From a virus (taxonomy: Duplodnaviria > Caudoviricetes), in the IMG/VR virus record IMGVR_UViG_3300049198_000021, positions 64,001 to 128,000 of that record: DNA of 64,000 nt; one strand, given 5' to 3'. Each line of letters begins with the position of its first letter. Positions within the stretch are counted from its first letter, which is position 1. Made by a program: the position numbers and the translations under genes. The notes below the pieces were generated by a model. It saw only the letters and a program-made list of their open reading frames with translations. It was not told the DNA's origin and ran no database searches. Below are positions 7,668-27,613 of this stretch, piece after piece.

Positions 7668-7720
7668 TACGCGGCGCGTGACCCCTCCCGGAGGCCCCTT
7701 CCGCGCCGGTCCCGGTAAGG

Positions 7721-7888
7721 TTAACGGCCCATTAACCTTTCTCCACCAGTAAGGTTAACGAAATCGGTCAATTTGTTAAGGTTAACAGCGCGTTAAGGTT
7801 AACAAACCCCTAATTTACTGCTCGTTAACCTTAACGAATATGGTTAACGGGCCATTAACCATGTTTGTTAACGTTAACGACTCGTTAA
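7721..7888. promoter_or_regulatory. Four TTAA-N7-TTAA sites (CtrA consensus)
   Basis: 7721-7736, 7782-7796, 7844-7859 and 7874-7888. Confidence 0.7.
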
Positions 7889-26841: not shown

Positions 26842-26990
26842 CAAGAGGCGGGAGCGATCCCGCCTTTCGCATTGTTAACCCAGTGTTAAGGTTAACATAT
26901 TGGTCTAAGTTGTTAACCATCAAAGTGGAAAAAGTGATTGACCGAATCAGCAAATCGGCCTAGACCCGAATCATCAACCGGAGACAGATC

Positions 26991-27119
26991 ATGCAAAACA
27001 TCCGCAAGAACCCCATCGCCGCCTCGCTCGCCAGCGCCCACCTCGTCCCTCGCAAGGTTCGCGCTCGCAAGGGCAAGGGCTCTTTCCGCCGCAACCCGAA
27101 ACACCGGGGCGCGGCGTGA
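26991..27119 (+). CDS. arfA: ArfA-like alternative ribosome-rescue factor (42 aa)
   Basis: MQNIRKNPIAASLASAHLVPRKVRARKGKGSFRRNPKHRGAA matches the ArfA pattern N.I...L....L..R.....KGKGS..R..KH. Confidence 0.75.
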   Translation: MQNIRKNPIAASLASAHLVPRKVRARKGKGSFRRNPKHRGAA

Positions 27120-27460
27120 GCGACCGCATCCGCCCCGTGGTTTTCGACTCGGCCCAGATCGAGCCCTTTGCCGCTCGCATCATCGGCATAGCCGCTTCGC
27201 AATTCTGTCGCCTCAAGGAGCGCGAGAAAGAGACCGGAGAGAAGTCGGACCCCTTCGACATGGAAGACGCTCTGATGCACCTCTGGTGGGCTCTCAAGGG
27301 GCTTGACCACATCGCAATAGCGTTGCGCGGCGGCAGGGATTGCGACGACCCGTCTGGCGTTCATTTTTCCATGGTGATGAACGCAGAACACGCCCGGATT
27401 CGCCGCCTTATCATGGAAGAACTCGGAGTCGATCCCGGATCACACCCGCGCTGGAAATGA
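27116..27460 (+). CDS. Cassette hypothetical protein
   Basis: GTGA overlap; terminator follows. Confidence 0.7.
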   Translation: MSDRIRPVVFDSAQIEPFAARIIGIAASQFCRLKEREKETGEKSDPFDMEDALMHLWWALKGLDHIAIALRGGRDCDDPSGVHFSMVMNAEHARIRRLIMEELGVDPGSHPRWK

Positions 27461-27613
27461 GGGGCTTCGGCCCCTCTTTCTTTTCTGGTAACCGTTCGTT
27501 AACCTTAATAAACGGCCCGAAATCGTTAACCATCAAAGTGGAAAAAGTGCTTGACCGAATCAGCGAATCGGCCCATACCCGAATCACCGCAACCAAGCGG
27601 ACGGAGACAGTCA

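What the first reader, a model, noticed from the sequence alone, without database searches (positions are those of the whole stretch)
26991..27119. Phage ArfA-like ribosome-rescue peptide, already in truncated form
Seen: a 42-aa ORF absent from the track, with its own cassette promoter and RBS, containing N.I...L....L..R.....KGKGSF.R..KH. Known: ArfA recruits RF2 to ribosomes stalled on non-stop mRNA through a KGKGS motif; in E. coli the active form is truncated and controlled by tmRNA. Inference: a stop codon just after the core makes it constitutive. It could recycle ribosomes when host mRNA is cleaved (a HicA-like cassette is nearby) or counter RNase-toxin defences.
Basis: partly seen in the sequence, partly recalled or inferred. 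Interest (0 to 1): 0.75.

Follow-up and report, generated by a model that had tools for sequence, protein, structure and literature searches.

The report
Phage mini-ArfA ribosome-rescue gene
A large marine phage carries a real, conserved 42-codon gene for a stripped-down ArfA, the small protein that frees ribosomes stuck on broken messages. Unlike the bacterial gene it ends in an ordinary stop codon, so it probably escapes the usual tmRNA control; similar phage genes have already been annotated, so this is a modest variant, not a new system.

Summary
It sits behind one of 38 repeated promoter/RBS cassettes. It matches Pfam ArfA above the curated cut-off (30.2 vs 25.5 bits). It aligns without gaps to canonical gammaproteobacterial ArfA (hhalign 98.2%) and is under purifying selection.

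The window is part of a 176.5-kb Erythrobacter-type, CbK-like phage. Relatives occur in 48 IMG/VR contigs. 44 of the 47 I examined end 5-17 residues after KGKGS with a true stop and no internal terminator. The few long-tailed copies do carry the canonical hairpin plus T-run inside the ORF. So the "pre-truncated, tmRNA-independent" reading is plausible.

One caveat: a short GC hairpin covers the last ten codons in this clade only.

The "HicA nearby" claim fails: no Pfam HicA match anywhere in the phage.

New context:
- The same phage encodes an alpha-type tmRNA and RtcB.
- ArfA was not found in 400 sampled Alphaproteobacteria outside SAR11.
- 96 of 151 SAR11 genomes have a chromosomal mini-ArfA.

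Phage ArfA is already annotated in phage RXM and pelagiphage HTVC027P, and function is untested. The scan also noted this same stretch in an overlapping window.

The parts
26847..26873 (+). Hairpin GGCGGGAGCGATCCCGCC plus a weak T-run. It is the terminator-like end of the preceding transcription unit.
   Evidence: Read from the sequence. It belongs to the repeated terminator-plus-promoter cassette families D4/D12. The strict terminator scan did not call it.
26874..26925 (.). TTAAC-rich operator-like words, including one full CtrA-type box TTAA-N7-TTAAC at 26874-26889.
   Evidence: Pattern search: 7 full boxes in the window against 0.07 expected, one of them here. Repeat families D8, D11 and D14. 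CtrA binding was not tested.
26934..26966 (+). Cassette promoter: GTGATTGACCGAATC with -35-like TTGACC (26938-26943) and a -10-like CTAGACC (26960-26966).
   Evidence: 38 copies on the + strand between 7988 and 30546, against 0.15 expected. No E. coli-type -10. The resemblance to the alphaproteobacterial housekeeping promoter consensus is from my own knowledge and was not tested.
26980..26985 (+). Ribosome-binding site GGAGAC, 5 nt before the ATG.
   Evidence: Sequence. The same GGAGAC-N-ATG arrangement recurs in repeat family D17, 15 copies, and upstream of the homologues in kin phages.
26991..27119 (+). ArfA-like gene, 42 codons plus TGA.
   Evidence: Pfam PF03889, 30.2 bits against cut-off 25.5. 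Six-frame search of the whole phage finds only this copy. hhalign 98.2% against canonical ArfA. Aligns to residues 11-46 of solved E. coli ArfA. Purifying selection.
27081..27123 (+). GC-rich hairpin (CGCCGC..CCCG / CGGG..GCGGCG) over codons 31-42. It ends at the TGA and is not followed by a T-run.
   Evidence: dG -23.8 kcal/mol against -12.8 +/- 3.7 for synonymous recodings (fraction at least as stable 0.005). It falls in the 3rd percentile of local 60-nt windows. Present in L012, L001 and L007, and in another register in L015. Absent in L013, L014, L002 and L044.
27116..27460 (+). 114-aa ORF of unknown function. Its GTG start overlaps the arfA stop (GTGA), so it is the second gene of the same transcription unit.
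   Evidence: ORF list. No Pfam, NCBIfam or PHROG hit and no useful Atlas hit. 96% identical in L007 but not adjacent to arfA there.
27459..27486 (+). Intrinsic terminator GAGGGGCTTCGGCCCCTC plus T-run, ending the arfA-orf114 unit.
   Evidence: Terminator scan.

Best explanation
This is a phage-encoded minimal ArfA. It is transcribed with one downstream gene from one of 38 early-region promoter cassettes. Its 42-residue product corresponds to residues 8-49 of E. coli ArfA, essentially the part seen on the ribosome.

Inferred mechanism, by homology: the basic C-terminal half (KGKGSFRRNPKH) occupies the empty mRNA channel of a ribosome stalled at the 3' end of a truncated message. The N-terminal half (NPIAASLAS, with the Ala that aligns to E. 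coli A18) recruits and activates the host's RF2 to release the peptide. The phage has no release factor of its own.

The ORF ends in a normal stop codon and has no internal terminator or hydrophobic tail. Synthesis should therefore not depend on failure of trans-translation, unlike bacterial arfA.

Together with the phage's own tmRNA, tRNAs and RtcB ligase, it would keep ribosomes available while mRNAs and tRNAs are being cut during infection. The hosts, as a class, mostly lack ArfA.

Shown here: family membership, conservation, gene architecture and genomic context. Inferred: ribosome binding, RF2 dependence, independence from tmRNA and biological role.
For: - Pfam ArfA match above the gathering score, and a single copy in the phage.
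- Ungapped alignment to solved E. coli ArfA chains, residues 11-46.
- hhalign 98.2%, E = 3e-14, against canonical gammaproteobacterial ArfA. The window protein has the same residue at 9 of that set's 11 invariant columns: N7, A11, S15, K27, G28, R34, K37, H38, G40. It has Leu for the invariant Val, and the invariant Gly of the upstream GRG motif falls before the aligned stretch and has no counterpart.
- Purifying selection.
- The gene moves as an independent unit among different neighbours in kin phages.
- All 9 close IMG/VR copies, and XM05 and L02, end 11-13 residues after KGKGS with a stop. 35 of 38 further viral loci end 5-17 residues after it.
- Copies with long tails (RXM, L066, L078, L018, L023) carry a hairpin plus T-run inside the ORF. 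The short ones outside this clade show no such structure. This serves as an internal control for the test.
- Canonical Vibrionaceae and Oceanospirillaceae genes show strong hairpins across the ORF end.
- Cryo-EM models of E. coli ArfA cover only 46-48 residues, and the truncated form is fully active (review PMC8012679).
- The phage genome has no RF-1 or SmpB domain. It does have an alpha-type tmRNA and RtcB.
- Pelagiphage ArfA is transcribed early and late (PMC12753301).
Against: - No functional data exist for any phage ArfA.
- The N-terminus is 7 residues shorter than in E. coli and lacks the GRG/KGQ stretch of canonical ArfA.
- In the wider viral family the position aligned to E. coli A18 is variable, and the preceding Ala is the invariant one. 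The RF2-activating contacts may therefore differ.
- ArfA-RF2 pairing is species-specific (own knowledge), and compatibility with alphaproteobacterial RF2 is untested.
- A hairpin more stable than synonymous recodings overlies the last ten codons in the window, L012 and L001. It could mark RNA processing and so some form of non-stop control.
- No recurrent functional neighbour and no tRNA gene lie next to the viral copies.
Confidence: 0.6

Rival explanations
1. It is the same protein, but it is still under non-stop control. The GC hairpin over codons 31-42 would be cut (for example by RNase III) or would stall or terminate transcription. Many transcripts would then lack the TGA, and the peptide would be tagged by host or phage tmRNA unless trans-translation is saturated.
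For: The hairpin is more stable than synonymous recodings in the window (0.005), L012 (0.000) and L001 (0.010), and borderline in L007 and L015. The tail residues differ (GAA, GVAA, GAAL, GRGE) while pairing is kept, and in L012 the N35T change plus a synonymous Gly change close the interior loop. A hairpin at the ORF end is the hallmark of bacterial arfA. The phage has its own tmRNA.
Against: The stem is only 10-12 bp and has no T-run after it. A translationally coupled gene starts within the stop (GTGA), and the unit's terminator lies 340 nt downstream. The hairpin is absent in L013, L014, L002 and L044 and in about 30 other short viral copies. A cut inside it would remove the conserved PKH residues.
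Confidence: 0.15
2. It is an ArfA-derived ribosome blocker, not a rescuer. The peptide would sit in the empty mRNA channel of stalled ribosomes without productively activating the host RF2. It would compete with host tmRNA-SmpB or ArfB, for example to keep phage nascent chains from being tagged for degradation or to steer rescue towards the phage's own tmRNA.
For: The hosts' class lacks ArfA, so host RF2 has not co-evolved with it: 0 of 400 sampled genomes and 0 of 2,376 in PMC11633108. The N-terminus is shortened. The A18-aligned position is variable in the wider viral family. E. coli ArfA A18T binds and recruits RF2 but does not release (PMC8012679). The Lacusarx authors proposed that phage tmRNA counteracts host tagging (PMC5648845).
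Against: The whole N-terminal RF2-contacting half is as conserved as the channel-binding half, with residues 5-15 invariant in the clade. It matches the canonical profile, and the window protein keeps Ala at the A18 position. A pure channel blocker would not need this half. SAR11 bacteria keep a similar mini-ArfA as a chromosomal gene, which argues for a beneficial rescue function of short forms.
Confidence: 0.15
3. It is a chance ORF or a decaying remnant with no function.
For: The ORF is very short, the composition is basic and low-complexity (K/R/G), and it is unannotated in phage vB_EliS-L02.
Against: dN/dS is 0.02-0.2 with third-position bias. It has its own RBS in every kin phage. The match spans 36 of 44 Pfam positions, including the non-basic N-terminal half. 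It is conserved in 48 viral contigs.
Confidence: 0.03

Closest known systems
E. coli ArfA (YhdL; Pfam PF03889; PDB 5H5U, 5MGP, 5U4I and others)
   Same: It has the same family signature over residues 11-46 of the E. coli protein: N14, A18, KGKGS, R41, K44 and H45 equivalents. Its size equals the ribosome-bound, cryo-EM-visible part.
   Different: It has 42 codons and a real stop, not 72 codons read from an RNase III-cut or prematurely terminated non-stop mRNA. It has no hydrophobic C-terminal tail and is 7 residues shorter at the N-terminus. It is carried by a phage whose host class lacks ArfA.
Annotated phage ArfA genes: Citromicrobium phage vB_CbaS-RXM gp10 (PMC8953757) and pelagiphage HTVC027P gp30 (PMC12753301)
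   Same: These are phage-borne PF03889 proteins in phages of marine Alphaproteobacteria. RXM gp10 is a direct tblastn hit.
   Different: RXM gp10 is 60 aa and keeps a hairpin plus T-run inside the ORF, the canonical non-stop design. The window gene is of the short, stop-terminated type. Neither paper discusses regulation or tests function. I did not examine the HTVC027P sequence.
tmRNA-SmpB trans-translation, including phage-borne tmRNA of CbK-like phages (Lacusarx, PMC5648845)
   Same: It has the same substrate, ribosomes on non-stop mRNA. The same phage genome carries an alpha-type tmRNA gene, as do XM05, vB_EliS-L02 and a 132-kb IMG/VR kin.
   Different: It uses an RNA-based tagging mechanism. 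In bacteria tmRNA represses ArfA, whereas here the two appear uncoupled. RXM and Cr30 have ArfA-like genes but no alpha tmRNA.
Other release-factor-dependent rescue factors: ArfT (Francisella) and BrfA (Bacillus)
   Same: They work in a similar way: a small basic peptide senses the empty mRNA channel and recruits a class I release factor (PMC6514570; PMC8012679).
   Different: They are unrelated in sequence. The window protein matches ArfA specifically. These families were not searched separately.
Chromosomal mini-ArfA of SAR11 (Pelagibacteraceae), seen here
   Same: These are ORFs of roughly 33-40 aa with the same core and a stop 5-6 residues after KGKGS. They are the only Alphaproteobacteria in which I found the family.
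   Different: They are cellular, single-copy genes that lie between housekeeping genes. They are AT-rich and even shorter at both ends.

Membership tests
ArfA (Pfam PF03889) | Sequence match to the family model above the curated gathering score | tested here: met
   30.2 bits against cut-off 25.5, E = 3e-7, profile positions 8-43 of 44. 28.4 bits in the six-frame search of the whole phage.
ArfA (Pfam PF03889) | Homology to experimentally characterised or canonical ArfA over both halves of the protein | tested here: met
   hhalign of the phage clade against 10 gammaproteobacterial-type ArfA sequences: 98.2%, E = 3e-14, 40 ungapped columns. The phmmer alignment to solved E. coli ArfA chains is weak on its own (E about 0.5) but collinear.
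ArfA (Pfam PF03889) | KGKGS motif followed by a basic tail (E. coli R41, K44, H45) that fills the mRNA channel | tested here: met
   K27-G-K-G-S31, R34, K37 and H38. They are invariant or nearly so in the clade.
ArfA (Pfam PF03889) | N-terminal RF2-activating segment with the Ala equivalent to E. coli A18 | tested here: met
   A11 aligns with A18, and with the invariant Ala of the canonical set. Caveat: in the wider viral family this column varies and the preceding Ala is invariant.
ArfA (canonical gene design) | The ORF runs through an internal hairpin or terminator into a poorly conserved hydrophobic tail, so the active peptide is made from non-stop mRNA under tmRNA control | tested here: not met
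   TGA comes four codons after H38. There is no tail and no T-run, and the next gene overlaps the stop. The same test detects internal terminators in the long-tailed copies L003, L066, L078, L018 and L023. A short GC hairpin is present; whether it is cleaved cannot be told from sequence.
ArfA (function) | RF2-dependent peptidyl-tRNA hydrolysis on non-stop ribosomes; rescue of ssrA/arfA synthetic lethality | not testable with these tools
   Needs biochemistry or genetics.
ArfB / class I release factors (Pfam PF00472 RF-1) | GGQ peptidyl-hydrolase domain | tested here: not met
   No PF00472 match in the whole phage genome at E <= 1. Any hydrolysis must therefore use a host factor.
   No match in the 176.5-kb phage at E <= 1. 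15 neighbouring ORFs have no Pfam family.

The most novel reading that the evidence does not exclude
Phages of Alphaproteobacteria import a ribosome-rescue route that their hosts lack. It is a deregulated, minimal ArfA that works with host RF2. In Erythrobacter-type phages it operates alongside a phage tmRNA and RtcB as a dedicated kit against RNA-cutting host defences or the phage's own host shut-off. Most viral ArfA genes would then form a distinct, stop-terminated class that has lost the non-stop feedback universal in bacterial arfA.
Probability: 0.35. Interest if true: 0.65.

Novelty: new variant of a known kind. Interest (0 to 1): 0.45.

Why it matters
ArfA is described as a back-up that is made only when trans-translation fails, and as confined to Gamma- and some Betaproteobacteria. 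Three findings here bear on that picture.

- Viruses carry many ArfA genes that have dropped the non-stop switch.
- One such phage also carries its own tmRNA.
- The hosts' class otherwise lacks ArfA, except for SAR11.

Together these suggest that ribosome rescue is a resource phages invest in during infection. They also give the field a natural 42-residue minimal ArfA for asking what is needed to recruit RF2. The gene offers a concrete candidate for testing whether ribosome rescue counters RNase-based abortive-infection systems. The step beyond published annotations is moderate, and it is regulatory, not mechanistic.

Tried and rejected
- NCBIfam gave no hit for the peptide, and PHROGs only an unnamed family at E = 2e-4.
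- phmmer against PDB sequences found only ArfA chains, but at E about 0.5, so membership rests on profile methods.
- A global fold of 226 nt around the gene was unremarkable (z = -1.1). The local hairpin appeared only in targeted tests.
- The HicA claim was rejected.
- The phage has no RF-1, SmpB or Pth1 domain.
- No Rfam family reached its gathering score in the window.
- Neighbouring genes gave nothing: 15 window ORFs and 7 ORFs from other viral loci have no Pfam family, and the Atlas gave nothing for the coupled 114-aa ORF.
- No tRNA gene lies within 1.5-3 kb of 38 viral arfA loci.
- No neighbour family recurs across phage lineages.
- The metagenome scan added only 2 loci.
- The broad alignment A2 was too diverse for the pattern search.
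- 'Relatives' is not defined for a virus record.
- I did not run a structure prediction: a 42-residue peptide that folds only on the ribosome would give an uninformative monomer model, and no complex prediction is offered.

Full report
**What is there.**
Window 26991-27119 (+) is an ATG-to-TGA ORF of 42 codons, MQNIRKNPIAASLASAHLVPRKVRARKGKGSFRRNPKHRGAA.

A GGAGAC ribosome-binding site lies five bases upstream of the ATG. Further upstream is the word GTGATTGACCGAATC. This is one of 38 near-identical copies, all on the + strand between 7988 and 30546, against 0.15 expected by chance.

These words belong to a repeated cassette made of a terminator hairpin, TTAAC-rich words, a promoter and an RBS. 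The cassette precedes almost every small gene of this region. The E. coli-type promoter scan finds no canonical -10, so 'own promoter' rests on the repeat and its TTGACC.

The arfA stop overlaps the GTG of a 114-codon ORF (27116-27460). A clear intrinsic terminator follows at 27459-27486. The unit is therefore bicistronic.

**Is it real and is it ArfA?**
- Pfam ArfA (PF03889) scores 30.2 bits against a gathering score of 25.5, over profile positions 8-43 of 44.
- A six-frame search of the whole genome finds this single copy.
- phmmer against PDB sequences retrieves only ArfA chains. The hits are weak (E about 0.5) but collinear, pairing residues 4-39 with E. coli residues 11-46.
- A profile of the phage clade aligns without gaps to ten canonical gammaproteobacterial-type ArfA sequences with hhalign probability 98.2%, E = 3e-14.
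- The window protein has the same residue at 9 of the 11 invariant columns of that canonical set: N7, A11 (E. coli A18), S15, K27, G28, R34, K37, H38 and G40. It has Leu for the invariant Val. The invariant Gly of the upstream GRG motif falls before the aligned stretch.
- Among six phage copies, dN/dS is mostly 0.02-0.2, and 26 of 40 variable sites are third codon positions.

It is a translated, selected gene of the ArfA family.

**Where it comes from.**
The window is bases 64001-128000 of a 176.5-kb IMG/VR virus record rated complete. Its nearest cultured kin are Erythrobacter phages XM05 and vB_EliS-L02, which are CbK-like siphoviruses (PMC9127768).

Homologues are present in several phages:
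- XM05, where it is a 42-aa 'hypothetical protein'.
- vB_EliS-L02, where it is unannotated.
- Caulobacter phage Cr30.
- Roseobacter phage CRP-212.
- Citromicrobium phage RXM, where it is annotated as ArfA and mentioned in one sentence of PMC8953757.

Pelagiphage HTVC027P gp30 is likewise reported as ArfA, transcribed early and late (PMC12753301). Phage ArfA is therefore already in the literature at annotation level, with no functional work.

Forty-eight IMG/VR contigs carry relatives. An exhaustive HMMER search finds 80 clusters at E <= 1e-3.

In kin phages the gene sits among different neighbours. In L007 it precedes a gene that it follows in the window, and in L012-L014 the flanks are unrelated. 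It behaves as an independent cassette.

**The 'pre-truncated' claim.**
The bacterial picture comes from review PMC8012679. E. coli arfA encodes 72 residues, but the active peptide lacks the last 17-18. It is made from mRNA truncated at an internal stem-loop, so tmRNA represses it. Cryo-EM models show only 46-48 residues.

The phage protein corresponds to E. coli residues 8-49. Tail lengths in the viral copies are short:
- All nine close IMG/VR copies, XM05 and L02 stop 11-13 residues after KGKGS.
- 35 of 38 further viral loci stop 5-17 residues after it.

I then looked for structure in the 60 nt after the motif, relative to local background.
- The long-tailed ORFs (RXM/L003, L066, L078, and the Pirellulales and Saprospiraceae copies L018 and L023) have a strong hairpin followed by a T-run inside the ORF. 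This is the canonical non-stop design.
- About 30 short viral copies outside this clade show nothing.
- Canonical Vibrionaceae and Oceanospirillaceae genes show strong hairpins across the ORF end (z = -3.7 to -6.5).

**A caveat specific to this clade.**
A 10-12-bp GC hairpin covers codons 31-42 and ends at the TGA. It is more stable than synonymous recodings in the window (fraction 0.005), L012 (0.000) and L001 (0.010), and borderline in L007 and L015. The tail peptides differ while pairing is kept.

It has no T-run. It is absent in L013, L014, L002 and L044, and a cut inside it would remove the conserved PKH. I read it as more likely related to translational coupling or mRNA stability than to non-stop control, but processing cannot be excluded.

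**Context.**
No HicA match exists anywhere in the phage, and 15 neighbouring ORFs have no Pfam family. The phage encodes no RF-1-domain protein and no SmpB, so a rescue reaction must use host RF2.

Outside the window the same genome carries three related features:
- A permuted alpha-type tmRNA gene: RF01849 at 88.4 bits and RF04321 at 82.6 bits, both above gathering.
- tRNA genes.
- RtcB RNA ligase at 415 bits.

XM05, L02 and a 132-kb kin have the tmRNA too. RXM and Cr30 do not.

A published survey found arfA in 0 of 2,376 Alphaproteobacteria (PMC11633108). My six-frame PF03889 search found none in 400 evenly drawn alphaproteobacterial genomes.

**An unexpected exception.**
96 of 151 Pelagibacteraceae genomes have one match each, 71 of them above the cut-off. 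These are ORFs of roughly 33-40 aa with an immediate stop. They lie between housekeeping genes such as PfkB kinase, endonuclease III, YkuD and a photolyase-related protein.

**Mechanism and confidence.**
Most likely (0.6) the peptide binds the vacant mRNA channel of ribosomes stalled on truncated messages and activates host RF2. It would be made irrespective of tmRNA status, as part of a translation-maintenance set that also includes tmRNA, tRNAs and RtcB.

Rivals:
- Residual non-stop control through the hairpin (0.15).
- A channel blocker that competes with host rescue without release (0.15).
- No function (0.03).

Only family membership, architecture and context are shown. Activity is inferred.

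**Verdict.**

Because phage ArfA genes are already annotated, this is a new variant of a known kind. Its interest is moderate and comes mainly from three points: the loss of the non-stop switch across viral copies, the pairing with a phage tmRNA, and the host class lacking ArfA.

Noticed in passing
Same phage genome, outside the window: G000:C1:2849-3280 (+) = L041:1501-1932: Permuted alpha-type tmRNA gene (Rfam RF01849 at 88.4 bits and RF04321 at 82.6 bits, both above gathering). By my reading, the tag frame ends ...REEIRLAA-stop. ARAGORN did not call it. It is also present in XM05, vB_EliS-L02 and a 132-kb IMG/VR kin, but not in RXM or Cr30. tRNA-Thr, -Cys and -Trp lie just upstream, and RtcB is at G000:C1:7782-8924.
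   Followed up: partly
L020:2995-3102, L022, L025, L027 (Pelagibacteraceae genomes); the genome search: SAR11 bacteria carry a single chromosomal mini-ArfA of roughly 33-40 aa with an immediate stop. It lies between housekeeping genes. 96 of 151 sampled genomes have a PF03889 match, 71 above the cut-off. Yet arfA is reported as absent from Alphaproteobacteria (PMC11633108), and I found none in 400 other alphaproteobacterial genomes. I found no paper describing it in the searched library.
   Followed up: partly
window 7988-30546 (+): There are 38 copies of a promoter word GTGCTTGACCGAATC. Each lies within a cassette of terminator hairpin, GTTAAGGTTAAC / GTTAACC words, promoter and GGAGAC RBS, so that nearly every small early gene is its own transcription unit.
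   Followed up: partly
window 7720-7888 and 26874-26889: Full CtrA-type boxes TTAA-N7-TTAAC: 7 matches against 0.07 expected. Six are clustered at the start of the cassette region. The seventh is in the arfA cassette, the only one of the 38 cassettes with a perfect box.
   Followed up: no
L005:1480-1617 (Roseobacter phage CRP-212, MZ892988.1): The ArfA-like ORF (41 aa) lies inside the annotated 3.6-kb CDS gp38 but in a different reading frame. Either it is an overlapping gene or the 3' part of gp38 is mis-annotated.
   Followed up: no
L004:1438-1602 (Caulobacter phage Cr30): An ArfA-like ORF sits in a T4-like Caulobacter phage, two genes upstream of an annotated RNA ligase and just downstream of GMP reductase. 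Its N-terminal part is annotated as belonging to a neighbouring hypothetical protein.
   Followed up: no
P0010 (110 aa, from the representative search): The first 32 residues of this protein are a near-identical ArfA-like N-terminus. The sequence then diverges into an acidic 79-residue tail. It could be a frameshifted or fused copy.
   Followed up: no
C-termini of short ArfA-like proteins: Many short forms end in an aromatic residue plus Ala or in Ala-Ala (RAWA, RAFA, RAYA, TYA, GAA, VAA). Vibrionaceae ORFs end in LMAA or LIAA. This resembles E. coli R48-G-N-W-E-A53 near the truncation point, and also ssrA-like C-terminal degrons. No test was made.
   Followed up: no
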